Part shown: positions 6,458 to 49,049 of the stretch, in pieces | Layout: every line of letters starts with the position of its first letter | How positions within the stretch are numbered: position 1 is the stretch's first letter | NCBI GenBank assembly: GCA_013215565.1 | Contig: JABSQV010000130.1 | Location: 8,880-72,879 of the forward strand | Length of the DNA stretch: 64,000 bases | Reading direction: 5' to 3' | From: Myxococcales bacterium | GTDB lineage: Bacteria; Myxococcota_A; UBA9160; SZUA-336 | Notes under the pieces: model-generated | What the model was told of the DNA's origin: nothing | Database searches by the model: none | What the model saw: the letters and a program-made list of their open reading frames with translations, nothing else | Program-made: the position numbers and the translations under genes

Positions 6458-6498
6458 GTGGACGATAGCACGGCGTGCCCCTGAGGGCTATTGCCCGA

Positions 6499-7192: not shown

Positions 7193-7621
7193 CTACGTGC
7201 CTGTGGCTGTGGTCGCGATCCACCGACCGCGCATGAACCAGGCGTCGAGGTTGTCGACGTGGCCCTCGACGGGTCGCTGGATCTCGCGCGAGACCCCGCA
7301 CATCGCGACCCCGGCCACAGCCAGCCGCGACTCATGCAAGACCTCGAAGGCGGTGTCGTAGATCTCGGCCGCCTGATCCAGCGACCGCTTGCTGTACCCG
7401 TACAGCTCGAACGTCTGCCCAGCGACGTACCCACCGCTCCTCGCGTTGCCCGACAAGAACTCAAACACCAGGATCGGACCCTCGCCGAGCTGCTCGATCG
7501 CCTTGGCGTCCTCGAGGCGAGAGCCGAACACCCGGCCGCCAACGAGCGTCTGGATCTCGTCGCTGCCCAGCAAGGTCTTCCGGATCAGGAGTCGAACGGT
7601 TCTGGTCTCTGCTCGTCCCAT
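7193..7621 (-). CDS. tail terminator / tail completion-like protein
   Basis: 142-aa protein in the head-tail joining block upstream of major tail; composition similar to DUF3168-type tail proteins (inference). Confidence 0.4.
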   Translation of the reverse strand: MGRAETRTVRLLIRKTLLGSDEIQTLVGGRVFGSRLEDAKAIEQLGEGPILVFEFLSGNARSGGYVAGQTFELYGYSKRSLDQAAEIYDTAFEVLHESRLAVAGVAMCGVSREIQRPVEGHVDNLDAWFMRGRWIATTATGT

Positions 7622-14569: not shown

Positions 14570-15547
14570 CTAGGCAGCGATCCCGACGAGGATGGCGGCA
14601 CCCAGGGTGTTGGCGAGGGTGAGCGCGCCGTCCCAGAAGATGTCGAACTCGTCGAACTGGCTCGAGGACTTCGCCAGCGGCATCACGGTGAGCGGGGTCA
14701 ACTCGGCGATGTAGCAGTAGCGGGTGTTGACCACGATGATCGCGGTCGTCACGGATCCGCTGTAGGCGGTGACCTTGGTCCCGTTGAAGGTCAGCACATC
14801 GGGCATGCCCGTCGTGGTGATTAGGGGGATCCCATCGTAGGTCCGGACGCGGAAGCCGGCCGCGATCTCGACCATGTCGTTGAACTGCTGCTGAGCCTGG
14901 AGCTGCGCGTTCAGGAGTCGCCGACCCTTGCGGCTGGCGAGGATGACGAGATCGGATCGGTTGCCCGAGCCCTTCACCGCGTCGATGGTCTCGTCCAGCT
15001 TGTCGAGGGTGAGCGCGTCACCGGTCACCGTCGTGGTCTGCAGGATGATCTGCGAGGCGGTGGCCTGGGTGAGCGTGATCAGCCCATCGAACTGGTCGGC
15101 GTCGATCGCGATGTCGCCCGTGACCAGGCCGTCCTCGAAGGTCTCGGAGAAGTCGCCGGTCCGCCCGACGATCTCACCGGCGAGCACGTCGCCGTAGGAG
15201 CGCCCGGTGGCCTGCAGCTTGCGAGTGACCTTGCCGCGAACGATCAGGGTCTTGCACGGGAGCGAGACCTGCACATACGTGCCGGTGCCCTCGGTGGGCT
15301 CCGTGGTGTCGTCGATCCACTCGGCCGAGGAGCCGGGGGTGCGCCGGTTGATGTACTCGGCGTTGCCCGACATCGGCTTGCGGGGCAAGACGGCGGCCGT
15401 TCCCAGTTCCCGATGATGGATCTGCTGGACGGTGCGGTTGATGTTCGTCTGGAGCAGGACGGTGCCAGCACCAGCGACGTTGAGGGCTCGTTCGAAGCGT
15501 TGACGGCGCGCCGGATCGAAACCTGCGAAAGCGGGGGAATTGCTCAT
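14570..15547 (-). CDS. major capsid protein
   Basis: 325-aa protein directly downstream of protease/scaffold ORF and upstream of connector; composition typical of HK97-fold capsid proteins. Confidence 0.65.
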   Translation of the reverse strand: MSNSPAFAGFDPARRQRFERALNVAGAGTVLLQTNINRTVQQIHHRELGTAAVLPRKPMSGNAEYINRRTPGSSAEWIDDTTEPTEGTGTYVQVSLPCKTLIVRGKVTRKLQATGRSYGDVLAGEIVGRTGDFSETFEDGLVTGDIAIDADQFDGLITLTQATASQIILQTTTVTGDALTLDKLDETIDAVKGSGNRSDLVILASRKGRRLLNAQLQAQQQFNDMVEIAAGFRVRTYDGIPLITTTGMPDVLTFNGTKVTAYSGSVTTAIIVVNTRYCYIAELTPLTVMPLAKSSSQFDEFDIFWDGALTLANTLGAAILVGIAA

Positions 15548-15574: not shown

Positions 15575-17668
15575 CTACTGCCAGGTGGCGCGCTCGTTGG
15601 GGTCGGTGATGATGCCGTCGTGCTCGGCGGCGACGAGGAGGGCGTGGAGTCCCTGCTCAAGGCGGACACGCTGCTCCCCGGCGAGGCCGGTGCGCGTGGT
15701 CAGCTCGGGAACGAGCTGCTGGGCGACGGCGGCCAGTGCCGGCGCGTCGGTGCGGGCGCGACCGATGAGGGTGTCATAGGCACCCTGGGCAGCGGGACCG
15801 TCGGGGATGGCCAGCGCGGAGCGGCCGACCCGGTTGGGGCGAGCGCACATCGCGGCGAGGGCATCCTCGGACGCCTTGGCGCGGGCGACGGCGGCGGCGG
15901 CCTGGTTGCGCGCTTCGGCGACCTGGGTGGGCGCGGCGCGGTCGGCCGGCGCGGGATCGGCAGTGCCGCTCGCCTTGAGCGCCGCGATATCGGTCAGCAT
16001 GGGAGCCAACGCCGCGTCGAGCAGGCTGCGGAAAGCCGCGAGGGTTTCTTCATTGACGGGCATCGCATGCTCCTCGGACGAATCGCCTTGATTGGCGATA
16101 GGTGAACTTGGGTCCGGTGGCGCGCTTCTCCGAGCGTCGACACCGATGGTAGCCGACTCGGCGCTCTCGCGCGAGTCGGCAGGTACAGATGTTGCCTCGG
16201 GCGCCGGGGTCACGGTGTGCTTCAGCGCATCCTGAACCGCAGGTCCGAGAGAACCGGTCGCCGCCGCTAGAACGGCCTCGGCTACTGCTTCCTCGGGAGC
16301 GTCGGCATCCCAGGAAACGATCACTCGACCGTCACGAACCTCGGAGCGGGCACAGGCCGCCTCGATCTGTTCGTAGGTGTTGTAGATCTCGCCCTCGGAC
16401 TCGGGCTCGGCGCGCGCGGCGGGGACATCGTCCCCATCCTTGTCGGCCTTGGCTCCGATCGGGGCGTCGTAGTCACCCTCCTCGGCCTCCTTGGAGAGCG
16501 ACTCATCGGCACCGGGATCGTCGCCGACCAGCTCGCCGGGCTCAAGGTCGTCCACGGTGCGGCCGCCCTTCAGGTATTGGTAGATCACCGTGTTCGGCGT
16601 GACCTCGGCCGCGACCACATGCCGCTCACCGAACTGCATCGCCACGCCGCTGTCATCGGTGACCACTGCGAGGAAGCCCTCATCGGCTTCGCCCTCGGCA
16701 ACGCGCTCGGTGAGGATGTCCCTGACCCGTTCGGCAACCGCTGGGGTGGTGAAGACTCGGGTGCCGTTGCCCAGGTGCTCGATCATCCGCTTGGCGCGGA
16801 CCTCGTAGGCGCTCCGCTCGATGGCGGTCCGCAGCTGAGTGATCGCGTTGGCGTCAGGGTTGGCCGGCGCTCGGGTGACGGCCAGGTGGTCGAGGTCGAC
16901 ACCCTGAACGATGACCCGCTCGACATCCCCGTCCTCGTTCTGGAGGATCTGCAGCTGGGTGAACCAGCCGCCGATGCTCTGCCCGATGATCTCTCCGCGC
17001 TTGACCCGCTTGAGGAGTGAGGCGGCAGCGATCTCGCTCGCATCGCGGTCGGCGACGACTTCTGGGATCGGGATGATCTCCATCGTGGCGCGCAGGAGGA
17101 AGTGGGTCTCGCTCTCGTTGTGTGGAGCTCGGACCTGATCCCCATCGACGGGGATGACCTCAGCGTGGACCGTCCGACCGATGATCTCGTCCCACTCGAT
17201 GGGTCCGCTCATGCCTCGATTGTGTCGCGGCAGGTACGGGATCCCGCCACCGACGATCATCTGACCCGCCATCATCTTGAGGGCGCGGAGGGACATCTCG
17301 GTCCCGTAGAAGTCGACCGAGGTGCTGCTGGCGATGCCTGCAACGAGCTGGCGACCGAACGCCTCTTCATCAGCGGTCCCCGGCTCCCCGGTCGCTGTCG
17401 GGTCGAGCAGGATCCCCTCGCCGTCGTCATCGATCACCCGCTCGGGGGGATCCACGAACGAGGTGCGGGCACTGGCCTCGACATCGAGCTGGACGGCGTT
17501 CGCCGAGAGTTGGATCGTCCCACCCTCAACAGATCGGGCGCTGGACTGCATCGGGACCGTGAACGGCACCCGGCAGCGGATCGTCCAATACGCCTGACCC
17601 TCGGCCGTGCGACCCGTCGGGGTGTTCCAGTCAAGACCAGCGAGGAAGGCGAGATGTGGCGCGCTCAT
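15575..17668 (-). CDS. prohead protease fused to scaffolding-like C-terminal region (697 aa)
   Basis: N-terminal block FYGTEMSLRALKMMAGQ...HNRGMSGPIEWDEIIGRTVH resembles HK97-type prohead protease; long acidic/Ala-rich helical C-terminus; position between portal and capsid. Confidence 0.55.
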   Translation of the reverse strand: MSAPHLAFLAGLDWNTPTGRTAEGQAYWTIRCRVPFTVPMQSSARSVEGGTIQLSANAVQLDVEASARTSFVDPPERVIDDDGEGILLDPTATGEPGTADEEAFGRQLVAGIASSTSVDFYGTEMSLRALKMMAGQMIVGGGIPYLPRHNRGMSGPIEWDEIIGRTVHAEVIPVDGDQVRAPHNESETHFLLRATMEIIPIPEVVADRDASEIAAASLLKRVKRGEIIGQSIGGWFTQLQILQNEDGDVERVIVQGVDLDHLAVTRAPANPDANAITQLRTAIERSAYEVRAKRMIEHLGNGTRVFTTPAVAERVRDILTERVAEGEADEGFLAVVTDDSGVAMQFGERHVVAAEVTPNTVIYQYLKGGRTVDDLEPGELVGDDPGADESLSKEAEEGDYDAPIGAKADKDGDDVPAARAEPESEGEIYNTYEQIEAACARSEVRDGRVIVSWDADAPEEAVAEAVLAAATGSLGPAVQDALKHTVTPAPEATSVPADSRESAESATIGVDARRSAPPDPSSPIANQGDSSEEHAMPVNEETLAAFRSLLDAALAPMLTDIAALKASGTADPAPADRAAPTQVAEARNQAAAAVARAKASEDALAAMCARPNRVGRSALAIPDGPAAQGAYDTLIGRARTDAPALAAVAQQLVPELTTRTGLAGEQRVRLEQGLHALLVAAEHDGIITDPNERATWQ

Positions 17669-17774: not shown

Positions 17775-20417
17775 TCAAACAGGCGGTCGGTTCCCGCCAG
17801 ACAGCGGAACGGCTCGGCCGGCGTTCACCTCGTCCCTGGTCCACATGACCAAGACACATCGGCACCGGCCTCCGCACTCGGTCGCCCCACCGGGCATCGT
17901 GGACAACTGCGACACGGGAACGAACCCTCGGGCGCCCTCGATCGAGCAGGTCGGGCACATGCGGTTGTCCCCGACGTTGACCCACTCGACCATCCACTCG
18001 ACGGCGGCGGGTTGACCGTCTGGGCCAGTCCCGGCCTCGGCCGATCCGTCGAGCAGCCCCTCGGTGAAGCTCTGGTTCGACAACTCGACCAGCTTGCCCG
18101 ACCAGTTGCTGATCCGGTGCTTCTGAGACTCCATCACCGCGCCGATCGAGAGCAAGACCTCCTCGGCGCTCGCACCAGCGGTGAGGCCGACCGGGGCCGG
18201 CTTGACCGCTCGGGCGTTGAGTGCGGATCGGGTCTGACCATCGTCGGTCACAGCTCCGACCACGGCGGCAAGACTCGCTCGCAGATCGGCGATCAGCCCG
18301 CCGGGGTCGCAGAGGAAGCGCATGGCGCGATCCCCGTAGGCGGCCGACCGGGCATCGATGTCCTCGAGGACGGGCAGGCCGGTGAAGTTCGCGGCAGCAT
18401 CGCGACCGATCCGACCCACATCGCGGTAGACCCCGCTGGTCGACAATGCCCAGTCGGTCTCCAGCTTGTCGAGCGCGCGACCGATCGCCTGGGTCAGACC
18501 CAAGGCGTCGTCGGAGTCGAAGTTGGTGGTGTACCGAGAGGAGACCGCGGTGAGCACATCTCGGGTGGCTTGGTCGTACAGAGGTTCGACCCTCCGCGCA
18601 TATTGGGCGGTCTGCTCCCACAGCTCGGAAAGCTGCAGCGTCCGAACGTTGGCGAACATCCCGCGCGGTTGCCACTCGCTCGGGAGGTCATCGATCAGCG
18701 CCCGCTGCTGGATCTCAGCGCGCACCTCGCCGGGGGCTTCATCGTCCTCGGGGTTCTCGGTCCCCGCCCCTGGGTCATCGACCGACCCTCCGCCTCCGCC
18801 ACCGCCGCCGCCGCCGCCGCTGGGAGGGGTGTCGTCATCGTCATCAGGATCTGGATCCTGGCCGAGGACGTTGGCGATGATACGCTCGGCGCTGACGAGG
18901 AGCTGGAGAGGGACTGGACCCTGAGGTGTGTCGACGGTCGCGATGTCGCCGCCACCGAGCGGGGGCTGGCCGATCTCCTTCCTCGCCTCGTTGCGAGTGA
19001 GTAGACCCTCCTGAACCAAGGCGACCAGCGTGTCGGCTACTTCCTTACGCTCGGCTGGGGTCAGCTTCTCGTCGCGGTCGAACCTGAAGCGGACGGGCGC
19101 CCCAGAGTTGCCCTGAGCGTCGAGCACCAGCGGCAAGATCCTGGCGTTGATCTTGCCCTCGATCAGTTCGAGGATCGGGTTGATGAGGTGAGAGGATCCG
19201 ACCTCAAGCTGCACCTGGCCGACGGCGCGCGGGATGTCCTCGCTCGCTCCCATCTCGACGGGCATGACCCCGAACACTCGCCAGATCGTGCGGCGAACGT
19301 CCTTGACCACGTTGATGAAATCCACGTCCTTGTTCGAGCGGCGCAGCTCGACCCACTTGGCGCCCGTGGCGGTCGGGTCAGCCGATGTGACCACGCGGAT
19401 CTTGTGGTCCTTGCCCCGCATCTTCTGCAGGTCGGCCTTGGCCGCCTCGGCCGCCATCCCGGCCAGGCCGGTGAGAACGAGAATGCCGGGAGGGATCTCG
19501 TCGGCGTCGAAGGTGAGCATGGTGTGCTCAGCCTGTCGCAGCATCGTGGTAATCTCGTTGAGGATCGTTTCGATGAGCGGCACGCCCTCGACGCCGCTGG
19601 TGTTGGCGAACATCCGCAGGTAGACGATCTGCCTGGGCGAGAAGAGGGGGTTGATGGTTGGGGTGCCATCGTGCTGAGCGATCTGCCCGAGTTGCTCCGG
19701 GGACAGCACCTGGGGAACGATCGCCCCGGTCCCGAGAAGATCTTGCTGGTAGCCCATCACCCGGCCGTGGGTGTCGACGAGAGGTCGGATGTCCCCACCT
19801 CGCAGCGCGACCAGCTCCTCAAGTTTGTCGCCGACCCCGGTTGTGATCCGACCTGTCTCCTCGTCGGTCTCCATCGAGGTGTCAAACACGTTCTCGATAA
19901 CCCCGGCATCGAAGACCAGCAGGTCGGTGATCCACTTGGTCATCACCTCTTGCCAGGTCTCACCGTCCTCGTTGGGCGCCTGCAGGAACCGCTCGGCTTG
20001 CTGGGCGGCATCGAGCGCGGACTCATACCCCGCCTCGGCCGGGTCCAACTCGGGCTTAATCATGTTGCCCCAGGTCGCGACCCGACGGACGATCGCGTCG
20101 ATGGCTGCTCGGACATCGGGTGAGCGTTGGTAGACCAGCCAGAGCTGCTCGGTCGTCAGGACGCGGTTGACCCGACCCTGCTGGTAGCTGGTGTCGAGAC
20201 CAAAGAGGGCAGACCCCGCCGACCGACCAACTCGGTCTCGGGTGTCGAGCATCGGTCGGCTGTGACCGGCTGCGCCCTGCATCCAGAGACCACCGGGCTT
20301 CTCAGCCTTCTTTCGTCGGAGTCGAACCACGCCGGTGGTGTTCGTTGCGAGGACGCGGACGGTCATGTTGTGAGCCCTCCCTGCCTGCGAAGGTAGCACG
20401 GCAGCGGGAGTGCTCAC
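17775..20417 (-). CDS. portal protein with C-terminal MuF-like head morphogenesis domain (880 aa)
   Basis: Size and position downstream of terminase region; internal D5/G11 linker (PDPDDDDDTPPSGGGGGGGGGGG); C-terminal CPTC...C cluster typical of MuF/SPP1 gp7-like domains. Confidence 0.7.
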   Translation of the reverse strand: MSTPAAVLPSQAGRAHNMTVRVLATNTTGVVRLRRKKAEKPGGLWMQGAAGHSRPMLDTRDRVGRSAGSALFGLDTSYQQGRVNRVLTTEQLWLVYQRSPDVRAAIDAIVRRVATWGNMIKPELDPAEAGYESALDAAQQAERFLQAPNEDGETWQEVMTKWITDLLVFDAGVIENVFDTSMETDEETGRITTGVGDKLEELVALRGGDIRPLVDTHGRVMGYQQDLLGTGAIVPQVLSPEQLGQIAQHDGTPTINPLFSPRQIVYLRMFANTSGVEGVPLIETILNEITTMLRQAEHTMLTFDADEIPPGILVLTGLAGMAAEAAKADLQKMRGKDHKIRVVTSADPTATGAKWVELRRSNKDVDFINVVKDVRRTIWRVFGVMPVEMGASEDIPRAVGQVQLEVGSSHLINPILELIEGKINARILPLVLDAQGNSGAPVRFRFDRDEKLTPAERKEVADTLVALVQEGLLTRNEARKEIGQPPLGGGDIATVDTPQGPVPLQLLVSAERIIANVLGQDPDPDDDDDTPPSGGGGGGGGGGGSVDDPGAGTENPEDDEAPGEVRAEIQQRALIDDLPSEWQPRGMFANVRTLQLSELWEQTAQYARRVEPLYDQATRDVLTAVSSRYTTNFDSDDALGLTQAIGRALDKLETDWALSTSGVYRDVGRIGRDAAANFTGLPVLEDIDARSAAYGDRAMRFLCDPGGLIADLRASLAAVVGAVTDDGQTRSALNARAVKPAPVGLTAGASAEEVLLSIGAVMESQKHRISNWSGKLVELSNQSFTEGLLDGSAEAGTGPDGQPAAVEWMVEWVNVGDNRMCPTCSIEGARGFVPVSQLSTMPGGATECGGRCRCVLVMWTRDEVNAGRAVPLSGGNRPPV

Positions 20418-22022: not shown

Positions 22023-22396
22023 CAGACCAGCTCGGGACTGTAGACATCGCGCCAGTCGCCGCGAGCGATGGACTCGACGAGCTTGGTGATCGCGAGTCGG
22101 TATCGGATCACGTCCTCGAGGACATCGCCCGACCAATCGACCTCGATGTCGAACGCCTCGATGCCGTCGACGTTGCCGTCCTTGTCGATGACCTCGATGG
22201 CGACGACGATGGCGCGGACGCCCTCCCATCCGGGGGTCGCATAGAAGTGGATGATCTGATCGGGGCGGCCGATCCGGGTCACCGCGATGCTACCGACCAG
22301 CGGGTGCTCGATGTCGATCCGCCAGTCGTTGACGGCCTTGGTCATCGCGACGAGCGGGCGGATGGTGTCGTTCAGGTAGCTGGCGGTCACGGTCAT
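22022..22396 (-). CDS. hypothetical protein
   Basis: ATG at 22396 (MTVTASYL) abutting variant B repeat. Confidence 0.5.
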   Translation of the reverse strand: MTVTASYLNDTIRPLVAMTKAVNDWRIDIEHPLVGSIAVTRIGRPDQIIHFYATPGWEGVRAIVVAIEVIDKDGNVDGIEAFDIEVDWSGDVLEDVIRYRLAITKLVESIARGDWRDVYSPELV

Positions 22397-22445
22397 GATG
22401 TTCTCTCTGTTGGTGTCTCCAAGGTACTGGGTGTACCCACTCACT
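22397..22445 (-). repeat. start-associated repeat, type B with GGTAC-N5-GTACCC
   Basis: CTCTCTGTTGGTGTCTCCAAGGTACTGGGTGTACCCAC. Confidence 0.7.
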
Positions 22446-22499
22446 GTAAACCACGATCACCCAACTTCTCGCCCATCAGCTCGACTGATACCAAGCAGC

Positions 22500-22976
22500 A
22501 TGGCGCCCACGAACAAGCAGCTCAACGACCGGCGAAAGCGGCGAAAGAACAGCAAGGCGAACGATGTGCTCGGCGAGCTGCTCGACTGGCAGCGGCCTCT
22601 GTTGATCCGCTGGCTGTTCGCCCAGGTCTGGAACAAGCACCAGCCCCAGGGGATCCAGCAGCGGACGAAAGATTACGCCCGCGAGGTCGCGACCGATCTG
22701 CTGGCGACGATGGATCTCGACATCATGGCGACCACGCCGCGGGGTCTGGAGAACGACCCCAAGTGGACCGATGCCCTCGGCGCCGTGTCGTCGTTCGACG
22801 CCCAGCGGCGCTGGCTCTGGATCGCGGTGCTCGTTGAGCAGACCGATCCGCCGCCCCAGGTTCGTGACCAGCTCTCGCGGCTGGGGTTGCTCTACGCAGA
22901 TATGGTCCGACAGCAGGCCGCGAACAAGGCGGGGTGGATCATCGGCGTGGGCTGGAAGGACGGAAAGAAACGATGA
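22500..22976 (+). CDS. hypothetical basic protein, co-oriented with methyltransferase
   Basis: ATG at 22500 (MAPTNKQLNDRRKRRKNSK); divergent from 22396 gene. Confidence 0.45.
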   Translation: MAPTNKQLNDRRKRRKNSKANDVLGELLDWQRPLLIRWLFAQVWNKHQPQGIQQRTKDYAREVATDLLATMDLDIMATTPRGLENDPKWTDALGAVSSFDAQRRWLWIAVLVEQTDPPPQVRDQLSRLGLLYADMVRQQAANKAGWIIGVGWKDGKKR

Positions 22977-23677
22977 CCCAGATCAGGCTGTTCAACGCGC
23001 CCACCCCACCCGGCCTGCCTCCCGGCATCGATCTGCGATGCTGTGATGTGGTTGACCTCCTCACCTCGCTCGATGAAACGCCCGCATTAGTGATCGCTGA
23101 TCCGCCGTGGACCTACAACCAAGCTCCGCCCAGACTTCCCGGCGACCAACCCATGAACGCCTCGGAGCACTACGATGGGCTCCCGGTGAGTGTGATCCGG
23201 GACCACTTCGCGCTCATCCCCAAAGGGTGCCCACGCCTTGCTCTGTGGGCGACGTGGCCGGTGTTCCTCCCTGAGTGGGATCTCAAACTCAAAAGGTGGG
23301 GCCGCCCGATCACTGGTGGTGCATGGTTCAAAAGCGACCCAAACGATGAAGGCCACTATGGTCCTGGTTTTCACTGGTCAGGGTGCAGCGAGCCCGTGCT
23401 GATTTACACGAAAGGCACAGCGTACTGCGATAGATCGTCACCGCTCCGAAACGCATGGCATGAGGCTCCGGGGAAGCACAGCCGAAAGCCCGTCGGGTGG
23501 ATGCGGCAGTGGGTGCGACGTTGGACCAAGCCTGGGGATCTCGTCCTCGATATGTACGCGGGGCTCGGCTCGGTCGCCGAGGTCTGTCTACTTGAGGAGC
23601 GGCGCTACATCGGTGCCGAGCTGGACCCAGCTCGACATCGGGACGCGCTGGGTCTGCTCGCCCAGGTCAGGCTCTAG
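22973..23677 (+). CDS. N6-adenine DNA methyltransferase, MT-A70-like (DPPW)
   Basis: ALVIADPPWTYN catalytic motif; start overlaps upstream stop. Confidence 0.7.
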   Translation: MTQIRLFNAPTPPGLPPGIDLRCCDVVDLLTSLDETPALVIADPPWTYNQAPPRLPGDQPMNASEHYDGLPVSVIRDHFALIPKGCPRLALWATWPVFLPEWDLKLKRWGRPITGGAWFKSDPNDEGHYGPGFHWSGCSEPVLIYTKGTAYCDRSSPLRNAWHEAPGKHSRKPVGWMRQWVRRWTKPGDLVLDMYAGLGSVAEVCLLEERRYIGAELDPARHRDALGLLAQVRL

Positions 23678-23980: not shown

Positions 23981-24205
23981 TCAGAAGGGCGGGATCACGA
24001 TCCTCACGCAAGAAGTGCGGCGGCGATCGTCATAGGCGATGCGCATGGCGCGCGACTCAGCGAGGAGGGCGCGCGACTCAGCGAGCAGCTCGGCGTAGGT
24101 CGGGGCGGGCTCGACATCGAACTCGGAGAGCCAGTGACCGTCAGTGGTCAGCGTGGTCCCTTTGGAGTCGTCAGCGGAGGGGGCGGTCGGTGTGCGTGTC
24201 GGCAT
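23981..24205 (-). CDS. hypothetical protein
   Basis: ATG at 24205 abutting conserved repeat; contains tandem LLAESRA duplication. Confidence 0.45.
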   Translation of the reverse strand: MPTRTPTAPSADDSKGTTLTTDGHWLSEFDVEPAPTYAELLAESRALLAESRAMRIAYDDRRRTSCVRIVIPPF

Positions 24206-24268
24206 GATGTTCTCTCTGTTGGTAGGTCCATCCTACGCGGCAGAGAGTCGATTGGACACCGGCAGACC
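24206..24268 (-). repeat. start-associated repeat, type A
   Basis: core plus GGACACCGGCAGACC box at 18-bp spacing. Confidence 0.8.
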
Positions 24269-24600
24269 TAAGTTTCTGGGGACTCTTTTCGCAGGTTGAC
24301 CTCGGCGACCCTGGTGACGTGCTCGACCAATCCGACCACTCGCTGCTGTCTCCTCGATGCTCGATCGACCATCCAGTCCTGAACCGTGCCCTTCTTGACG
24401 ACATCGGCACCGCGCCGGATCTGCCATCGCCGGTAGTCGATCATCGCCTGCACGTTGGGCTCGCTGTCGAGCCCCCCGATCATCCAGCCCTCGTCATCCC
24501 CCTCGCCAGGGAGCCATGTGATCGCTCGTTGGTCAGTCGACAAGGTCACCTCCTGCGCGCTGGTATCGGGTTCCGTGGTGGGCGGTGAGCCTGACGGCAA
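24268..24600 (-). CDS. hypothetical protein
   Basis: 110-aa ORF. Confidence 0.35.
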   Translation of the reverse strand: MPSGSPPTTEPDTSAQEVTLSTDQRAITWLPGEGDDEGWMIGGLDSEPNVQAMIDYRRWQIRRGADVVKKGTVQDWMVDRASRRQQRVVGLVEHVTRVAEVNLRKESPET

Positions 24601-24635
24601 GCGGTGTTTGGCGATACCTCTGGGCGAGGTGAACG

Positions 24636-25106
24636 ATGCCCAAGAACCCGAGAGCCTGCAAAATGTCTGGAGATGAAGACTGTCCGTGGCTCACCCTGAT
24701 GACCATGATCGAGCAGTACGAGACCTTGGCGGCCGTCCCGGTGATCACGACCGGCCCCAGCGCCAAGATCGCGCTGATGCACGTCCGCAGCCTGCAGAGG
24801 TTGTCCGACGCGCTCGATCTGTGCATCGATCACGTCGGTGGGTGGAAGACCGAGATGTTCGGAGCCTGGCCCACCTACGACATCCGAGGCAAGCTGCTCC
24901 GCAAGTCGATGCAGCTCATCGGTGCCGCTGTGGTCGCTCGCAAACTGGCCGAGCACGCCCGAGCTGGGAACAAGCGCGCGGCCAGGGCGACCTTGCACGG
25001 CGGGGTGACCAACGAGTTCATCCGCTTCCTCAAGGACGCGGCCCAGGACGAGGAGATCGTCGCCGACGTGGCGTTCAACCCCGGCGGCCCCGTGGCCGAG
25101 GCGTAG
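24636..25106 (+). CDS. hypothetical protein (first gene of plus-strand accessory cassette)
   Basis: 156-aa protein-like ORF; opposite-strand 472-aa ORF is its shadow. Confidence 0.45.
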   Translation: MPKNPRACKMSGDEDCPWLTLMTMIEQYETLAAVPVITTGPSAKIALMHVRSLQRLSDALDLCIDHVGGWKTEMFGAWPTYDIRGKLLRKSMQLIGAAVVARKLAEHARAGNKRAARATLHGGVTNEFIRFLKDAAQDEEIVADVAFNPGGPVAEA

Positions 25107-25107
25107 C

Positions 25108-25629
25108 ATGGGCGACCAGGACAGGTACACGGGGTGGGACTCGATCCTTGGTGCGTTGAAAGGGTTCGGTCGGTCGGCCGAGGCTGCGGGCAAGTCTGTG
25201 GACAAGCTGGCGAGGGCAGCATCGCCAGCCGCCTCCCCGGTCGAGCAGATCCGCAGGGCGCTCGGTGGTGGGTCCGAGCTGCGCAAGATCGTGGACAGCG
25301 CGGGGTGGAGTTTCTGGGAGCGAGGCGAGCGGCCTGAGAAGCTGCGGCACTCCGACGTGTCGATGCAGACCAACGCGGCGGGAGACCGCAGCGGGATCTG
25401 GGTCGGCAAGTTGCTGATCGCATCCTTCTCGGTGTCGTGTTTCGAGACCGAGAAGGGCATGATCGTCATCGACTGGGAGACCGTGTCGCTTGAGGTCATG
25501 CCGGGGGCGACCGAAGCCAGCGAGCGATCCGCTGCCGTCATGGCCGACTCGCTCAGGCGGATCGGCATGACCGAGGAACAGATCACAGCCACGCTCTTGG
25601 AGCACGGCATCATTTGGGAGCAAGAATGA
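25108..25629 (+). CDS. hypothetical protein
   Basis: 173-aa ORF, 2-nt spacer from upstream gene. Confidence 0.5.
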   Translation: MGDQDRYTGWDSILGALKGFGRSAEAAGKSVDKLARAASPAASPVEQIRRALGGGSELRKIVDSAGWSFWERGERPEKLRHSDVSMQTNAAGDRSGIWVGKLLIASFSVSCFETEKGMIVIDWETVSLEVMPGATEASERSAAVMADSLRRIGMTEEQITATLLEHGIIWEQE

Positions 25630-26168
25630 GAGCATTGATGGATCAGGTCCGCGAATTCCACACGGTGGGTCAACTCGGGATCGGGGAGCCCTGGACGGTC
25701 ATCGACGATGGCGACGAGGCGGCCGAGATCGCTGCCGTCGCCGAGGTGCTCGATGGGGAGGCCAGGCTGCTGGCGCGCATCGGCAAGGGCACCCTGGCCC
25801 TGAGGGCGCGGCTGATGGTCGAGGAGTTGGCCGAGACCCTGGACGCGATGGCTCGGGGAGATGTCGTCGAGGTCGCTGACGGCCTGGCCGATCTGGCCTA
25901 TGTCACCGCTGGTACGGCCATCGAGTTTGGGATCCCGCTCGACTTGGTGAGCGACGAGGTTCAACGGTCCAATATGGCTAAGTTCCCGCCCTGTTCCTCA
26001 TGCCTCGGAACGGGCACCGGGGATGTTGGAGGGCTGACCCCTTGTCACGCCGAGGGGTGTTGCAACGGAAACGTCCGCGTCCTCGACGAGAACGGCAAGG
26101 TGCAGAAACCCGAAGGGTGGACCCCGCCCGATATCGCTGGGGTGATGGAGGCGAGCCGTGGGATCTGA
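25626..26168 (+). CDS. MazG-like nucleoside triphosphate pyrophosphohydrolase
   Basis: MRALMDQVREFHTVGQ...EELAETLDAMARGD...ADGLADLAYVTAGTAIEFG matches MazG/HisE-type NTP-PPase helices; C-terminal Cys cluster; ATGA overlap with upstream. Confidence 0.65.
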   Translation: MRALMDQVREFHTVGQLGIGEPWTVIDDGDEAAEIAAVAEVLDGEARLLARIGKGTLALRARLMVEELAETLDAMARGDVVEVADGLADLAYVTAGTAIEFGIPLDLVSDEVQRSNMAKFPPCSSCLGTGTGDVGGLTPCHAEGCCNGNVRVLDENGKVQKPEGWTPPDIAGVMEASRGI

Positions 26169-26442
26169 AACACTGACGTTCGAATGGACCGACAGGCGGC
26201 AGATGGGCAAACGAGATCGTGAGGCGAGGTTGTCCTCGCTGATCTCACGCCCAAATGGCGCGCTCCGCTCAGAGATCATCAAGGAATGCTTTGGCGTCTT
26301 ACCCACCGCCAGGCAGGCGCGTTCCCATGCGCTGCAAAGTGCATCCAGGGTCATTCGACGCGATCTGTTGAACCTCAACATGCGCATTGAAAGGGTTAGG
26401 GAGCCCGTGAGAGATGTTCGCTACATTGGTAGGCGAACTTGA
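26158..26442 (+). CDS. hypothetical protein
   Basis: 94-aa ORF. Confidence 0.35.
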   Translation: MGSETLTFEWTDRRQMGKRDREARLSSLISRPNGALRSEIIKECFGVLPTARQARSHALQSASRVIRRDLLNLNMRIERVREPVRDVRYIGRRT

Positions 26443-26999
26443 CCTGCATCATCGGACTGGTCGAAGACGACAAGGTCTACCTCGGTGGCGACAGCGCCGG
26501 GGTGGATGGGAACTGGAACGTGACCCTGCGAGCTGACAAAAAGGTCTTCAAGCGGGACGGATACTTGATCGGCTTCACCACATCGTACCGGATGGGGCAG
26601 GTGCTTCAGTACATGGCGACTCTCCCAACACCGCCCGATCCGTCGACACTATCTGACACCGACCGCTTGGACTGGCTGATGGAGTTCATGGTGGTCGAGT
26701 TCGTGGAGTCGATCCGAAAGGCGTTCGACAAAGCTGGCTACACCAAGATCGAGAATAGCCGCGAGGAGGGCGGCCAGTTCCTCGTTGGCGTCAACGGACG
26801 CCTGTTCTGCATCGGTTCAGACTTCCAGGTCGGGGAGTCGATGGCTGGGTTCGATGCTGTGGGCTCTGGAGCGACCTACGCGATCGGAGCGATGGCGGTC
26901 TCTCGACGCAAGCCCATCAACCGGATCAAGCAAGCCCTGGCAGTCGCCGAGCAATTCAACGCGGGTGTACGGGGACCGTTCATCGTGGTTCACGGTTGA
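26439..26999 (+). CDS. HslV / proteasome beta-type Ntn-hydrolase peptidase
   Basis: TTG start overlapping upstream stop gives (M)TCIIGLVEDDKVYLGGDS with Thr1 nucleophile; GSGATYAIGAM equals HslV GSGGxYA motif. Confidence 0.6.
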   Translation: MTCIIGLVEDDKVYLGGDSAGVDGNWNVTLRADKKVFKRDGYLIGFTTSYRMGQVLQYMATLPTPPDPSTLSDTDRLDWLMEFMVVEFVESIRKAFDKAGYTKIENSREEGGQFLVGVNGRLFCIGSDFQVGESMAGFDAVGSGATYAIGAMAVSRRKPINRIKQALAVAEQFNAGVRGPFIVVHG

Positions 27000-27212
27000 C
27001 CGTGCTGGGTGATACCATCCAGTGCCCATCGTGAAGGCGAAGGCATCCCCGAAGCGGCGTTCCTGCCCGACCCCCTCTCTGTTGGTACTAAGCGGTGTGG
27101 GAGGGCAGGGACGTCCAACCTCTGGTCGAGGGGTCGGCGCGCGGAACGGGTCATCGCGAACAGCTACACCAGCGATGTGCGAGGAGCCCAGTAAGTCGCG
27201 CCGGCCCTGAGA

Positions 27213-28946
27213 TCAGAGCGCCGAGTACGAGCCACCCTGTTGCAAGAGGTCGTAGGCGATCCGGTCGTAGACATCGGCCAGGCGGAAGTGGTCGGCGGCG
27301 CTGCCTTCATGCCAGACGATCCGGCCCTTGTCCTCGTTGAGCACTCTGACCGGGGCGCGCATCTGATCGCTCCATCCGAGCACGGTGAACACGTCGGCGG
27401 GGAACGTGCGGCGCCTCTCCTGAATGTCGGCGAACGACACATCGAACACGGCCGTCCTGTCCACCCTGACTTCTTGGATCCGGTACTTGAGTTGCATCCC
27501 GTAAGGCAGCGCACCAACTCGCGGTGTCGGGAAGAACCGACAGAGCCAGACCTGGGCGCCCCCGTTGTTGATGAAGTAGTCCCTCAGCTCTTGCGCCTTG
27601 TGGGTCTCGGGCTGGGCGTCGATCACGCATGACTTGACGTGGTAGCGGATCAGCGCATCCTGCACCTCGTCGAAGGTGCGGCACGCCTGCACCAGCACAG
27701 CTCGGCGCACCGGGGGCAGGCTCGCGTCGGGCTTGCCGTTCTGGCCCTTGGCGGCCTCGATGACGCTGATGGACAGGTTCATCACCGAGCCCACATCGAT
27801 CCCCGCGGTCACGGTCAGCCGTCGATATTGGTCCCCGCCCGAGTAGTCGAGGTTGTCCCCGATGGCGGCGGCCTCCAGCATCGACTGGTCCAGCCTCGCC
27901 CCGGAGTACTCGAATGGGATCCCCAGCACCGAGCAGTAGAACGCGGCGAGCTTGGTCGGGTCGCCCTGCGCCTTGAGCCACTCCAGGTACAGGTCGGTGA
28001 GGCGCTGAGACAGGACATCGAGTCGCGACATCCAATAGCCGCGTGTCGAGCCCTCCCCCTCGGCGACCCAGAGTGCTCCAGCAGCGACCCGATCGAAGGG
28101 CTCGGTGCATCGCCGACACACGGGTCGGATGTCGGGGCCGCCCTCCCAGTTGCCCTGGACGTGGTTGTGGGCCTGGGCGCCCGCCCACCCCTTGTGGTCG
28201 CGAGGCAACCACTGCCCAGTGCCCTCGTCCCTTCGGACCACGTTGATGAACCAGTCCACGGGCTGGCGCTCGCCACAGTGTCCGCACTGCATGTACCAGC
28301 GACGGCGATCGCTCTCATCGTAGAGGCGCGAGATCCCGACGTTGGGCAGCGTCGGGTTCCCCAGTCGGATCATCTGGGGGTAGGGGCTCTCTCTGAGTCG
28401 GTCCTTGGCCTTGGCGAGGTTCTCTGGATCGCAGTGGTCGAACTCGTCCACGATCAGCAGGTCGGCCGAGAACTCCACGAAGTCGCCGGGGGTGTTCGAT
28501 CCGAGGAACAGCATCGAGCCCGCGCCGAACTTCTTGAGCTTCAGGCTCCCCGTCCTCGCCTTCTTGGCCTTTTCGTTGCCCATGGTCATGCCGCCGGGGC
28601 ACCGCTCACGGTATGCGGGCACGAATCGCAGGAGGGGATCCACCCGCTGCTTCACGAACCGATCTCGGATCGAGTAGGTCGGAAGCACATAGGCAACGAT
28701 GCGACCTTGCCACCCAGCCTTCTGAAGCGCGATCTGGACCGACAGTTCGGACATCCCTGTCTGCACGGCCTTGCGGATCACCCAGTCGTTGCAGTTGGCG
28801 GCATCGGCGTACAACTCGATGAGGTACGGCTTGTCGACGAACGACATTGGCGTGCCGCGAGTCGATTGATGATGCGACAGCGCGAGACCCAGGACGGGAT
28901 GCTCGGCAGAGAGCTTCGCCATCGTCGAGTGGTACTGGTCGAGCAT
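27213..28946 (-). CDS. terminase large subunit (lambda GpA-like)
   Basis: KAVQTGMS Walker-A variant resembling lambda gpA KSARVGYS; LLIVDEFDH Walker B; 577 aa; first gene of leftward late operon. Confidence 0.8.
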   Translation of the reverse strand: MLDQYHSTMAKLSAEHPVLGLALSHHQSTRGTPMSFVDKPYLIELYADAANCNDWVIRKAVQTGMSELSVQIALQKAGWQGRIVAYVLPTYSIRDRFVKQRVDPLLRFVPAYRERCPGGMTMGNEKAKKARTGSLKLKKFGAGSMLFLGSNTPGDFVEFSADLLIVDEFDHCDPENLAKAKDRLRESPYPQMIRLGNPTLPNVGISRLYDESDRRRWYMQCGHCGERQPVDWFINVVRRDEGTGQWLPRDHKGWAGAQAHNHVQGNWEGGPDIRPVCRRCTEPFDRVAAGALWVAEGEGSTRGYWMSRLDVLSQRLTDLYLEWLKAQGDPTKLAAFYCSVLGIPFEYSGARLDQSMLEAAAIGDNLDYSGGDQYRRLTVTAGIDVGSVMNLSISVIEAAKGQNGKPDASLPPVRRAVLVQACRTFDEVQDALIRYHVKSCVIDAQPETHKAQELRDYFINNGGAQVWLCRFFPTPRVGALPYGMQLKYRIQEVRVDRTAVFDVSFADIQERRRTFPADVFTVLGWSDQMRAPVRVLNEDKGRIVWHEGSAADHFRLADVYDRIAYDLLQQGGSYSAL

Positions 28947-29138
28947 TCACCAAAGGTGCCGCCCAGCCCGACCGAAGTCAAGATGGGCGGCCTCATTGGG
29001 TTGTAGATGGAGCGACGAGGTCGGGCCTGCTCCGCCTTTCCCTGGGGGGTACCCAAGGCCCCACTACCGGGTCATCGCCCGATCACCGTAGCATGGGCCA
29101 ACGTGGTACACCAATCAGGGACGCCCAGGAGGTGCAGA

Positions 29139-29735
29139 GTGTCGAAGGCAGCGAAGGCAGAGCCAGTCGAGGAAGACCAGGCCGCGAAGTGGGTCAAACG
29201 AGAGTTGCTTGAACCCTGGGTCGGCAACCCCCGCGACAATGAGAAGGCGGTCGACCCGGTGGCGTTGTCGATCGAGCGGTTCGGGTTCGGAGCTCCGATC
29301 GTCGCGTGGAAGCCCGAGACCCCCATGGTTATCGCTGGGCACACTCGGCTCAAGGCCGCGACCAAGCTGGGCCTCGCCGAGGTACCTGTCCGCTGGATGT
29401 CGCACCTGACCGAAGCAGAGGCGAAGGCACTCGCCCTGGCCGACAATCGACTCGGTGAGTTGGCCGACTGGAACTTCGAAGGGCTGCAGGGAGAGATCCA
29501 GGCCCTCGCTGAGCAGGATGTCGACCTGTCGGGTCTGGGTTGGGCCGGCAACGAGTTGGAGGTGCTCAAAGGCAACCTCGAACAGTTCCTCCCGAAGCAG
29601 AAGCCGAAGCCGCCGAAGTCGTTGGAGTCTGAGCACTACATCGAGATCCGCTGCACCAACGAGCGACTGAATGAGATCCAGGATCAACTGCTCGCCTGGG
29701 ACGGTGAGGAAGACATCGAGGTACAGATCGCATGA
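29139..29735 (+). CDS. ParB-like nuclease domain protein
   Basis: GTG at 29139 with AGGAGG SD; NPR...GHTRLKAA ParB/Srx motifs. Confidence 0.6.
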   Translation: MSKAAKAEPVEEDQAAKWVKRELLEPWVGNPRDNEKAVDPVALSIERFGFGAPIVAWKPETPMVIAGHTRLKAATKLGLAEVPVRWMSHLTEAEAKALALADNRLGELADWNFEGLQGEIQALAEQDVDLSGLGWAGNELEVLKGNLEQFLPKQKPKPPKSLESEHYIEIRCTNERLNEIQDQLLAWDGEEDIEVQIA

Positions 29736-30580
29736 CCACCCCAGGCACCGAGCGCAACGTCAAGCAGGCCGAGAGGTTCGTCCAAGAGCACGATGGTCGA
29801 GTGACCTTCCAAGGCAAGTGCGAGGGCGAGGCGTGGCAGAAGCAGCTCCGAGATCGCTACCTGCATGAGGGCGCGCCGCCCGTCGACTTGAAGCTCAAGC
29901 GAGCCCGCGTGATCCCCGTCACCCGTCGACTCGCCGAACACATCATCTTCAAGTACGAGTGGCTCGGCACGATGGTGTCGACGGGTCGCCACTACGGGAT
30001 CTTCTTTGGTCCCTACTGCGCTGGGGTGACCTGCTCAGGCGTTGGATGCACTGGGGGCACCAACACGGCGAAGATGTTCGGCATGGAGACTCAGGAGATG
30101 TTGACCTTCGCCAGAGGGGCATGCGTCCACTGGGCACCAACGGGGGCCAACTCCAAGTTGGTGTCGTGGTCCTGCCGTCACCTCGCCGAGCACGGTCGGC
30201 TGACCGTCGCCTACGCAGATACCGACGCTGGGGAGATCGGGACAATCTACCAGGCGTGCGGTTGGACCTACATCGGCAAGGGCAGCTCGACGCGGCAGTG
30301 GGTCAGTCCCGAGGGCAAGATCCTCGATCAGAAGACCCCCGGCAACCTCGTTGAGCAGCGGGGGTTCCCGTCGAACAGCGGCGGCTGGCTCAAAGGTCAG
30401 CGCGCCCAGTGGGTTCAGGCGATGAGGGACGCGGGCTGGGTCGAGCAGATCACGAACCCGAAACACCGGTACGTTAAGGTGCTCCGGAAGCGGGACAAGG
30501 AACTGCATGCCCGGATCGCGGACATGGCGCAGCCCTACCCGAAGCGAGTGGGCACCTCGGCGGCCGCCGCCTCTCAGTAG
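29732..30580 (+). CDS. hypothetical protein (282 aa)
   Basis: Overlapping start with ParB gene; Cys/Gly-rich central region. Confidence 0.45.
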   Translation: MTTPGTERNVKQAERFVQEHDGRVTFQGKCEGEAWQKQLRDRYLHEGAPPVDLKLKRARVIPVTRRLAEHIIFKYEWLGTMVSTGRHYGIFFGPYCAGVTCSGVGCTGGTNTAKMFGMETQEMLTFARGACVHWAPTGANSKLVSWSCRHLAEHGRLTVAYADTDAGEIGTIYQACGWTYIGKGSSTRQWVSPEGKILDQKTPGNLVEQRGFPSNSGGWLKGQRAQWVQAMRDAGWVEQITNPKHRYVKVLRKRDKELHARIADMAQPYPKRVGTSAAAASQ

Positions 30581-49020: not shown

Positions 49021-49049
49021 AACGGATGATCGGCGTCGGGGCTCGACTT

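What the first reader, a model, noticed from the sequence alone, without database searches (positions are those of the whole stretch)
24636..26999. Plus-strand accessory cassette between terminase and portal encoding an HslV-like Ntn protease and MazG
Five co-directional, overlapping genes are inserted antisense to the late operon: unknown 156 aa, unknown 173 aa, MazG-like NTP pyrophosphohydrolase, 94-aa protein, and an HslV/proteasome-beta-type peptidase. The peptidase start is TTG overlapping the upstream stop, so fMet removal exposes Thr1 (TCIIGLV...GSGATYAIGAM). No cognate HslU/unfoldase is present. A phage-borne proteasome-type protease next to a nucleotide-pool enzyme is a plausible counter-defence or host-takeover module and is poorly described.
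Basis: partly seen in the sequence, partly recalled or inferred. Interest (0 to 1): 0.7.

Follow-up and report, generated by a model that had tools for sequence, protein, structure and literature searches.

The report
Phage proteasome-like peptidase beside MazG
A novel high-GC phage carries a small plus-strand gene cluster whose last gene encodes a genuine proteasome/HslV-type threonine peptidase, but this protein family is already catalogued as common in phages, and its pairing with the neighbouring MazG gene is peculiar to this phage, not a conserved module.

The parts
24636..25106 (+). ORF1, 156 aa, ORFan of unknown function; first gene of the + strand cluster
   Evidence: ORF. Codon score 0.61, best of six frames, GC3 0.885. 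Only self-lineage hits among 5.8 billion proteins. No Pfam, PHROG, NCBIfam or PADLOC hit. A 99%-identical variant contig (L090) carries a 59-nt deletion that shifts the frame of its C-terminal third.
25108..25629 (+). ORF2, 173 aa, ORFan of unknown function; starts 1 nt after the ORF1 stop
   Evidence: Codon score 0.34, GC3 0.845. Only a self hit. No family hit.
25626..26168 (+). MazG-like (DR2231-type, all-alpha) NTP pyrophosphohydrolase, 180 aa from ATG 25626 (ATGA overlap with the ORF2 stop; alternative TTG start at 25614), with a Cys-rich insertion of about 35 aa
   Evidence: Pfam PRA-PH 2.4e-14, above the gathering score. phrog_671 4.5e-30. PDB DR2231 1.3e-9, matched in two segments flanking the insertion. 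Closest phage homologues are in Gordonia, Microbacterium and Mycobacterium phages. ELAE...EVAD metal-binding-type motif read directly from the translation. Public gene call of 180 aa.
26158..26442 (+). ORF4, 94 aa, uncertain coding status; overlaps the MazG stop by 11 nt and the peptidase start by 4 nt (TTGA)
   Evidence: Codon score -0.19, best of six frames, GC3 0.63. Not called in L006-L009 but present as P0147. Other hits are spurious repeat matches. Single-sequence AF2 model has pLDDT 71, helical, uninformative. No Rfam family.
26439..26999 (+). Group-I proteasome homologue (AAH-like; BPH/HslV-related) Thr1 Ntn peptidase, 186 aa, TTG start, no propeptide
24544..24635 (.). About 92-nt divergent gap between the likely start of the minus-strand 91-aa gene (TTG 24543, behind GGAGG) and the ORF1 ATG; presumed site of the cluster's promoter (inferred); GAGGTG ribosome-binding site 5 nt before the ORF1 ATG
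   Evidence: Sequence read. No sigma-70 consensus found. None of the promoter/leader repeats lies here.
27000..27212 (.). Convergent gap between the peptidase stop and the TerL stop; holds a decayed copy of the minus-strand leader repeat (about 27078-27092) and an 11-bp inverted repeat (27058-27068 / 27103-27113); no canonical terminator

Best explanation
Positions 24636-26999 are a real, tightly packed plus-strand transcription unit of four certain genes and one doubtful gene. It sits in a novel high-GC tailed phage (a 78-kb metagenomic scaffold), in the mixed-orientation accessory region between TerL and the portal. Its last gene encodes a group-I proteasome homologue. This is a compact, propeptide-free Thr1 N-terminal-nucleophile peptidase, closest in structure to BPH and HslV and most likely belonging to the AAH clade of Fuchs et al. 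2021.

Shown: the fold, the conserved Thr1/Asp17/Lys33/Gly/G-x-G catalytic set, and a start codon (here TTG) placed directly before Thr.

Inferred: deformylase and methionine aminopeptidase remove fMet, freeing the Thr1 alpha-amine and hydroxyl as in HslV and BPH. The protein then assembles into a stacked-ring, self-compartmentalised particle. Like BPH, it works without a dedicated AAA+ unfoldase, on peptides or unstructured polypeptides that its elongated pore loop admits.

The gene behaves as a mobile accessory ('moron-like') gene. It is widespread in phages of hosts ranging from 25 to 72% GC, often dropped into variable slots of the packaging/head operon, and also sits in housekeeping regions of bacterial chromosomes. 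Its adjacency to MazG and the two ORFans here is a lineage-specific accident of gene packing, not a conserved functional module. The physiological substrate is unknown.
For: Coding and anatomy. Fold and active site. Start codon plus Thr in 160 of 160 loci, including a TTG start in Moorella phage MTATph1. Met removal shown experimentally for BPH: PMC5777263. The four-helix compact architecture without H5 or propeptide matches group I, and the presence of H2 excludes PPH. Taxonomic spread (Micromonosporaceae and Actinomadura, Azospirillum, Methylobacterium and Devosia, Myxococcota, plus phages) matches AAH. Abundance in phages: 437 IMG/VR contigs, 197 GenBank phage records, 36 BFVD models. No conserved partner: 0 of 80 viral loci carry MazG, ORF1, ORF2 or ORF4. 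No AAA+ appears among the recurrent neighbours in viral or bacterial loci. Slots within head modules vary. GC is lower (0.57-0.60) over 26000-27000 than in the flanks (0.64-0.67), consistent with separate acquisition.
Against: No biochemical data exist for any AAH or PPH protein, and BPH itself showed no activity on model substrates. Ring assembly and unfoldase independence are inferred from a monomer model and from the absence of a neighbouring ATPase. AAH membership could not be tested against the reference sequence. The two-fold enrichment in head/packaging operons (38 of 80 loci) may point to a late or virion-linked role instead of generic accessory cargo. The window encodes a MoxR AAA+ ATPase, and the closest cultured-phage homologue of the peptidase (Moorella phage MTATph1) also encodes the closest MoxR homologue, so a distant ATPase partner is not excluded. 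Within this genome the plus-strand islands around TerL are all DNA-modification or nucleotide genes (MTase, MazG, ParB-like, Mom-like), which gives the counter-defence idea some local colour.
Confidence: 0.6

Rival explanations
1. Counter-defence or host-takeover module: the peptidase and MazG, with ORF1, ORF2 and ORF4, act together early in infection. MazG would reshape nucleotide or alarmone pools while the peptidase destroys host defence or regulatory proteins.
For: The genes are translationally packed on one strand. All neighbouring plus-strand islands encode DNA-modification or nucleotide functions typical of self-protection: N6/N4 MTase, ParB-like and Mom-like. None of the minus-strand leader repeats precedes the cluster, so it is probably regulated differently from the minus-strand genes that carry the repeat.
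Against: 0 of 80 related viral loci have MazG, ORF1, ORF2 or ORF4 within 8 kb of the peptidase. ORF1 and ORF2 are ORFans, and ORF1 is frameshifted in a 99%-identical variant. There is no PADLOC or anti-defence family hit. In relatives the gene usually sits in late head operons. Bacterial copies sit in housekeeping contexts.
Confidence: 0.15
2. Late, head-associated protease: the peptidase works in or around capsid assembly. It might clear scaffold or delta-domain fragments, process a portal, MuF or ejection protein, or be packaged and ejected. Here it merely ended up on the opposite strand in its usual TerL-portal slot.
For: 38 of 80 viral loci have TerL, portal, S78 protease, MCP or TerS within 5 genes, and 37 of those 38 are co-directional. 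Nine show the order TerL-PEP-portal, the same slot as in this window. L001 has portal/MuF-PEP-234 aa-105 aa-MCP, and L005 has TerL-JAB-PEP-portal.
Against: A canonical S78 prohead protease coexists in 16 loci and probably in this phage: the 697-aa gene after the portal gives Pfam S78 at E = 0.003, below cut-off, with signature segments aligned. The slot varies (before TerL, between TerL and portal, after portal, after MCP), which is typical of inserted cargo. About half the loci and the Moorella phage place it among small non-structural genes. In this window it is convergent with TerL and co-transcribed with MazG. Bacterial chromosomal copies lack any phage context.
Confidence: 0.2
3. ORF4 plus the peptidase form a two-gene unit: the translationally coupled 94-aa product is a specific regulator, adaptor or inhibitor of the peptidase.
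For: TTGA stop-start overlap. ORF4 and the peptidase share the lower-GC segment. ORF4 is the best of six frames and was called as a protein by one pipeline.
Against: The NTGA overlap follows automatically from a start codon followed by a Thr (ACN) codon. ORF4 has a negative codon score and low GC3, no homologue next to any of 160 related peptidase genes, and no confident fold.
Confidence: 0.07
4. Catalytically dead or non-protease homologue (for example a scaffold, or a ligase like connectase).
For: BPH, the closest solved relative, showed no proteolysis of model substrates. Proteasome-like folds include the ligase connectase.
Confidence: 0.05

Closest known systems
[quoted passage not shown]
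   Same: Compact subunit of about 180 aa with helices H1-H4, no H5 and no propeptide. Thr1/Asp17/Lys33 core. Radiates from BPH and HslV. Found in Actinobacteria, alpha-proteobacteria and other bacteria, and in phage genomes.
   Different: Membership is inferred from features and distribution, not from clustering with the reference sequence. The paper reports that no Actinobacteria-specific phages encoding AAH could be found. This copy is in a 64% GC phage whose MazG and portal point weakly to the actinophage gene pool, but the host is not established.
BPH (beta-proteobacterial proteasome homologue; PDB 5ovs, 5ovu)
   Different: Only 17-20% identity. The pore loop here (about residues 99-113, KAGYTKIENSREEGGQ) is long but charge-neutral, not strongly acidic. 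Ring symmetry is unknown. BPH is not reported in phages (Table 1).
HslV (ClpQ), the peptidase of the HslUV protease
   Different: No Pfam Proteasome or NCBIfam HslV hit. No HslU in the window or next to any relative. About 15-residue loop where HslV has a short H2-S7 linker.
[quoted passage not shown]
   Same: Phage-borne group-I proteasome homologues. Same PHROG. About 29% identity over residues 1-133 to the T5-like phage proteins.
   Different: PPH is about 140 aa and lacks helix H2. This protein is 186 aa with a 23-residue H2.
Caudoviral prohead (head-maturation) proteases, S78/HK97 gp4 type
   Same: Often encoded a few genes away in relatives, in the same late operon.
   Different: Unrelated fold and a Ser/His mechanism. 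They coexist with the Ntn peptidase instead of being replaced by it.

Membership tests
Proteasome-beta/HslV superfamily (MEROPS T1-type Ntn hydrolases) | Four-layer alpha-beta-beta-alpha Ntn-hydrolase fold | tested here: met
Proteasome-beta/HslV superfamily (MEROPS T1-type Ntn hydrolases) | Nucleophile Thr (or Ser) at the mature N-terminus | tested here: met
   TTG-ACC at 26439. Thr aligned to mature Thr1 of HslV and 20S beta. Start codon plus Thr in 160 of 160 related loci. Actual Met removal is not testable here.
Proteasome-beta/HslV superfamily (MEROPS T1-type Ntn hydrolases) | Asp17, Lys33, oxyanion Gly and the G-S/C-G motif | tested here: met
   D18, K35, G45, G142 and G144 (numbering with Met) are invariant in 52 sequences. 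They align to the GGD, K33-V and GSG motifs of HslV.
Proteasome-beta/HslV superfamily (MEROPS T1-type Ntn hydrolases) | Thr1-dependent proteolysis or inhibitor labelling | not testable with these tools
   Needs biochemistry.
HslV proper | Matches curated HslV or Proteasome family models | tested here: not met
   No Pfam hit at E <= 0.1. NCBIfam gives only 20S_bact_beta at 13.6 bits against a cut-off of 191.9.
HslV proper | Cognate HslU AAA+ unfoldase (normally adjacent) | tested here: not met
   No HslU/Clp-type domain among the window's large ORFs. No AAA+ among recurrent neighbours in 80 viral and 80 bacterial loci. 14 kb of the 78-kb scaffold lies outside the window.
HslV proper | Short H2-S7 linker (pore loop); dodecamer of two hexameric rings | tested here: not met
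   The model has about 15 residues between H2 (76-98) and the next core strand (114-118), against a 'short linker' in HslV. Oligomeric state is not testable.
BPH | Elongated, highly acidic pore loop; tetradecamer | tested here: inconclusive
   The loop is elongated but has 3 acidic and 3 basic residues (sequence). The family consensus keeps two Glu. Ring symmetry is not testable.
AAH (Fuchs et al. 2021) | Group-I compact architecture: H1-H4, no H5/S12, no propeptide, no insertions | tested here: met
   Secondary structure. Definition.
AAH (Fuchs et al. 2021) | Distribution centred on Actinobacteria and alpha-proteobacteria, also in phages | tested here: met
   464 species. The top hits are Dactylosporangium, Actinoplanes, Actinomadura, Azospirillum, Methylobacterium, Devosia and Myxococcota. 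437 viral contigs.
AAH (Fuchs et al. 2021) | Clusters with the AAH reference set (representative WP_035979212) | not testable with these tools
   The reference sequence is not retrievable and is absent from the supplement held.
PPH (Fuchs et al. 2021) | About 140 residues, lacking helix H2 | tested here: not met
   186 aa with H2 at residues 76-98. Definition.
MazG / PRA-PH all-alpha NTP pyrophosphohydrolase (third gene) | Family-model match above the curated threshold and homology to a solved MazG-like enzyme | tested here: met
   PF01503 at 53.9 bits against a cut-off of 21.3. DR2231 at 1.3e-9. phrog_671.
Conserved peptidase-MazG gene module | Recurrence of the gene order in other phages | tested here: not met
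   0 of 80 viral and 0 of 80 bacterial loci carry a homologue of ORF1, ORF2, MazG or ORF4 within 8 kb.

The most novel reading that the evidence does not exclude
AAH-type proteasome homologues are a phage late-gene function and not random cargo: an unfoldase-independent Thr1 protease particle made alongside heads, and possibly packaged or ejected, that degrades specific host or phage proteins. This phage would be the first likely actinobacterial-type (high-GC) phage to carry one, re-wired into a separately regulated operon with a MazG enzyme, perhaps together with the phage's own MoxR AAA+/VWA pair.
Probability: 0.12. Interest if true: 0.7.

Novelty: new member of a known kind. Interest (0 to 1): 0.35.

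Why it matters
Proteasome-type peptidases without a partner unfoldase (BPH, AAH, PPH) have no known substrate or role. Phage copies are abundant: hundreds of viral contigs carry one. About half sit inside packaging and head operons, next to a conventional prohead protease. A genetically tractable phage could therefore be the easiest way to find out what these particles do. This particular locus adds a confident, catalytically intact example in a novel high-GC phage. It also shows that the MazG linkage is not general, so effort should go to the head-module association and not to a supposed peptidase-MazG system. A practical by-product is that non-ATG starts cause annotation errors that delete the catalytic Thr1, as in Moorella phage MTATph1.

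Tried and rejected
1. Megablast of the region against 50,697 phage genomes found no match. TerL and portal give only about 25-30% identity hits, so there is no cultured relative to lean on.
2. Pfam, NCBIfam and PADLOC on the peptidase, ORF1, ORF2 and ORF4 gave nothing usable.
3. ORF1 and ORF2 homologue searches returned only this lineage.
4. A dN/dS-type test using variant contig L090 failed because L090 is 99% identical. It only revealed a 59-nt deletion in ORF1.
5. My hunch that ORF4 is an OmpR-type winged helix was not supported. There is no Pfam hit. The exhaustive search returned only self plus repeat-driven hits to two giant proteins with unrelated Pfam content. The single-sequence AF2 model is low-confidence and helical. 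No fold search was run on it.
6. The sigma-70 promoter and intrinsic terminator scan and the Rfam search over 24000-27400 found nothing significant.
7. Searching for sister phages through TerL, to test the 'insertion' history, gave no close relative in IMG/VR and one 42% relative in metagenomes that shares only TerL. An apparent tblastx hit to the 219-aa pre-portal gene was not reproduced by tblastn.
8. The head-maturation-protease reading of the peptidase was rejected as the main explanation because S78 proteases coexist with it.
9. The 472-aa antisense ORF 24546-25964 was rejected as coding.
11. Host assignment was not achieved.
Full report
**What is in the sequence.** ORF1 (24636-25106) is followed after one base by ORF2 (25108-25629). 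The MazG-like gene overlaps the ORF2 stop, either from TTG 25614 or, more likely, from ATG 25626 in an ATGA overlap; the ATG is the start chosen by the public gene caller. ORF4 (26158-26442) overlaps the MazG stop by 11 nt. The peptidase gene starts at TTG 26439 in a TTGA overlap with the ORF4 stop.

In this 64% GC genome long ORFs arise by chance, so I trained a codon model on eleven confident genes of the window. ORF1, ORF2, MazG and the peptidase score 0.61, 0.34, 0.36 and 0.46 bits per codon, each clearly the best of six frames. The 472-aa antisense ORF scores 0.00 (GC3 values). ORF4 is the exception: its frame is the best of six but negative (-0.19), and its GC3 is 0.63. One public pipeline skipped it and another called it (P0147).

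**The setting.** The window is part of a 78,129-bp metagenomic scaffold from a tailed phage with no close cultured relative. The structural genes lie on the minus strand:

| Gene | Coordinates | Evidence |
|---|---|---|
| Tape measure | 572-4759 | |
| Major capsid protein | 14570-15547 | |
| 697-aa protein with a weak, sub-threshold S78 prohead-protease match | 15575-17668 | Pfam E = 0.003; signature segments align |
| Portal | 17775-20417 | |
| TerL | 27213-28946 | |

The 6.8 kb between TerL and the portal is not a simple operon with one insert. It holds at least a dozen small genes in alternating orientation. That includes a second plus-strand island with a DNA methyltransferase (22395-23677). 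TerL is flanked on its other side by plus-strand ParB-like and Mom-like genes.

A conserved element of about 75 nt occurs ten times in the window, against 0.08 expected by chance. Its consensus on the coding strand is ..TTGCCGGTATCCAAT..GTAGGATGGACCTACCAACAGAGAG-N7-ATG. Nine copies lie directly upstream of minus-strand genes and one upstream of a plus-strand gene. None precedes the plus-strand cluster. A decayed copy lies in the convergent gap between the peptidase and TerL. No consensus promoter, terminator or Rfam family was found around the cluster.

**Identity of the peptidase.** Pfam, NCBIfam and PADLOC give no significant hit, but PHROGs places it in phrog_1040, 'peptidase HslV family' (2e-23). 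The large protein database returns more than 540 homologues of about 180 aa, none with a precomputed Pfam domain.

- In an alignment of 52 diverse members, T2, D18, K35, G45, S49, R51, G142 and G144 are invariant.
- A profile of that alignment hits HslV (8.7e-5), Rhodococcus 20S beta (1.9e-4) and BPH (2.6e-4). The family's Thr aligns to the mature Thr1. GGD aligns to Asp17, K-V to Lys33, and G-C/S-G to the GSG motif.
- The AlphaFold model built on this alignment is confident (pLDDT 95.3, pTM 0.90).

The TTG start is well supported. In all 160 related loci examined, the codon aligned to residue 1 is a start codon (126 ATG, 29 GTG, 5 TTG) and the next codon is Thr. Because Thr codons begin with A, every such gene starts NTGA. 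The 'stop-start overlap' with ORF4 is thus partly automatic.

**Which branch of the superfamily.** Fuchs, Alva and Lupas (2021, PMC8665760) already described phage-associated proteasome homologues. PPH is about 140 aa, lacks helix H2 and occurs in Caudovirales and their hosts. [quoted passage not shown] Both radiate from BPH and HslV in their group I.

The present model has H1-H4 (residues 50-59, 76-98, 145-154, 159-173), with no H5 and no propeptide. That excludes PPH and fits the compact group-I architecture. A scan of one genome per bacterial species finds relatives in 464 species. The closest are Dactylosporangium, Actinoplanes, Actinomadura, Azospirillum, Methylobacterium, Devosia and Myxococcota (names), which is the AAH distribution.

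I could not retrieve the AAH reference sequence, so membership is probable but not proven. The protein is not HslV in the strict sense. It fails the curated family models, has no HslU, and has a loop of about 15 residues after H2 where HslV has a short linker. That loop is BPH-like in length but not in acidity.

**Is the cluster a module?** No. IMG/VR holds 437 contigs encoding a relative, with GC ranging from 25 to 72%. In the 80 best loci, none has a homologue of ORF1, ORF2, MazG or ORF4 within 8 kb. The same holds for 80 bacterial loci.

Clustering the ten nearest neighbours in each viral locus and annotating the largest clusters gave the following:

| Recurrent neighbour | Loci (of 80) |
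|---|---|
| Portal | 26 |
| TerL | 20 + 5 |
| S78 prohead protease | 16 |
| HNH endonuclease | 10 |
| Major capsid protein | 6 |
| TerS | 5 |

Altogether 38 of 80 loci have such a hallmark within five genes, and 37 of those 38 are co-directional with the peptidase. Nine show the order TerL-peptidase-portal, the same slot as in this window, where the gene is instead convergent with TerL. The slot varies, however: before TerL, between TerL and the portal, between the portal and the protease, or after the capsid gene. A conventional prohead protease is usually present as well.

Other examples:
- Portal/MuF-peptidase-...-capsid (L001).
- TerL-JAB-peptidase-portal in Corallococcus prophages (L005).
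- Runs of small unknown genes.

Bacterial chromosomal copies sit among housekeeping genes. In Azospirillum these are CysS, GltX and NadE. In Dactylosporangium they are a DUF1028 Ntn hydrolase, an MFS transporter and an aminotransferase. Only 3 of 80 bacterial loci show a detectable phage hallmark, and none has an adjacent AAA+ gene.

**The other genes.** The third gene is a MazG/PRA-PH-type all-alpha NTP pyrophosphohydrolase: Pfam 2.4e-14, phrog_671 and the solved DR2231 enzyme at 1.3e-9. It carries a Cys-rich insertion of about 35 residues. Its nearest phage homologues are in Gordonia, Microbacterium and Mycobacterium phages.

ORF1 and ORF2 are ORFans. A 99%-identical variant contig carries a 59-nt deletion that shifts the frame of the ORF1 C-terminus, which hints at weak constraint.

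ORF4 has no true homologue and no confident predicted fold.

**Unfoldase.** Pfam scans of all window ORFs of 300 aa or more that look coding find no HslU/Clp-type protein. They do reveal a MoxR-class AAA+ ATPase (49050-50258) next to a VWA protein (47429-49009), about 22 kb away. Moorella phage MTATph1 is the best cultured-phage match for both the peptidase (46% identity) and this ATPase (45%), with the two genes 39 kb apart in that genome. That is a lead, not evidence of partnership.

**How it most likely works.**

Shown:
- The fold.
- The conserved catalytic set.
- A start codon directly before Thr.

Inferred from established knowledge of HslV, BPH and the proteasome:
- Deformylase and methionine aminopeptidase remove fMet (Thr is a permissive second residue). 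Met removal was demonstrated for BPH, PMC5777263.
- The free Thr1 amine and hydroxyl, together with Lys33 and Asp17, carry out peptide-bond hydrolysis.
- The subunits stack into a double ring with internal active sites.
- With no dedicated unfoldase in any context, access is probably limited to peptides or unstructured chains, gated by the elongated pore loop, as proposed for BPH.

I judge a mobile accessory gene encoding a stand-alone peptidase to be the best reading (about 0.6).

**Novelty and verdict.** The protein kind is known, from the bioinformatic description in 2021 and from PHROG 1040. It is common in phages. No experimental study of a phage copy was found in the library. This locus is a new member in a novel high-GC phage. 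The specific claim of a peptidase-MazG module is not supported. The more interesting general observation is the family's recurrent placement in packaging and head operons beside a canonical prohead protease.

Noticed in passing
window 11701, 21109, 22404, 24213, 30698, 30998, 34683, 35352, 48966 (+ strand coordinates; element reads on the minus strand) and 52019 (opposite orientation); decayed copy about 27078-27092: A promoter/leader-like element of about 75 nt occurs ten times (0.08 expected). Its consensus is CCGAGAAA..TTGCCGGTATCCAAT..GTAGGATGGACCTACCAACAGAGAG-N7-ATG, with an invariant ACCAACAGAGAG core, always directly upstream of a start codon. It looks like a phage-specific promoter or translational operator that defines the minus-strand transcription units. 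It is absent upstream of the plus-strand cluster.
   Followed up: partly
window 47429-51617 (minus strand): A MoxR-class AAA+ ATPase (bpMoxR/AAA_5, 49050-50258) lies next to a VWA-domain protein (47429-49009) and a DUF6744 protein (50361-51617). Moorella phage MTATph1 carries the closest cultured-phage homologues of both this ATPase and the peptidase.
   Followed up: partly
window 59229-62309 (+): A 1026-aa Toprim/DnaB-type primase-helicase is interrupted by LAGLIDADG/Hom_end homing-endonuclease domains, so it probably contains an intein.
   Followed up: no
L172 (Moorella phage MTATph1, OR602862.1) 6001-6558: The GenBank CDS for 'peptidase HslV family' (MTATph1_CDS0188) starts at a downstream ATG. 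Homology begins 42 nt upstream at TTG-ACT, so the annotation removes the catalytic Thr1. Non-ATG starts (34 of 160 loci) probably cause similar errors elsewhere.
   Followed up: yes
L090 (ENA scaffold_9135) versus window 24891-24949: A 99%-identical variant of the cluster carries a 59-nt deletion inside ORF1 that shifts the frame of its C-terminal third. This suggests ORF1 is dispensable or weakly constrained.
   Followed up: partly
L005/L048, L028, L032 (Corallococcus/Myxococcus prophages), about 7500-8000: A Prok-JAB (deubiquitinase-like metalloprotease) gene lies immediately upstream of the peptidase, between TerL and the portal. This JAB plus proteasome-homologue pairing may deserve its own look.
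   Followed up: no
L100, L112 and other Dactylosporangium loci, about 8760-9610: In Dactylosporangium chromosomes the AAH-like gene is followed by a DUF1028 protein (another Ntn-hydrolase family) fused to a peptidoglycan-binding domain. In Azospirillum it follows a DJ-1/PfpI-like gene near cysS, gltX and nadE.
   Followed up: no
window 22934-23677, 29007-30580 (+): The plus-strand islands flanking TerL encode an N6/N4 DNA methyltransferase, a ParB-like nuclease-type protein and a Mom-like DNA-modification protein. This amounts to a DNA-modification theme on the strand opposite the structural genes.
   Followed up: no
window 26000-27000: GC drops to 0.57-0.60 over ORF4 and the peptidase, against 0.64-0.67 on both sides. 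This is consistent with a separate, more recent acquisition of this end of the cluster.
   Followed up: no
window 17775-20417 (minus): The 880-aa portal has a long C-terminal extension after an Asp-rich and poly-Gly linker (..DPDPDDDDDTPPSGGGGGGGGGGGS..), ending in a Cys-rich motif (CPTC...CGGRCRC). It resembles a portal-MuF fusion, as in L001.
   Followed up: no
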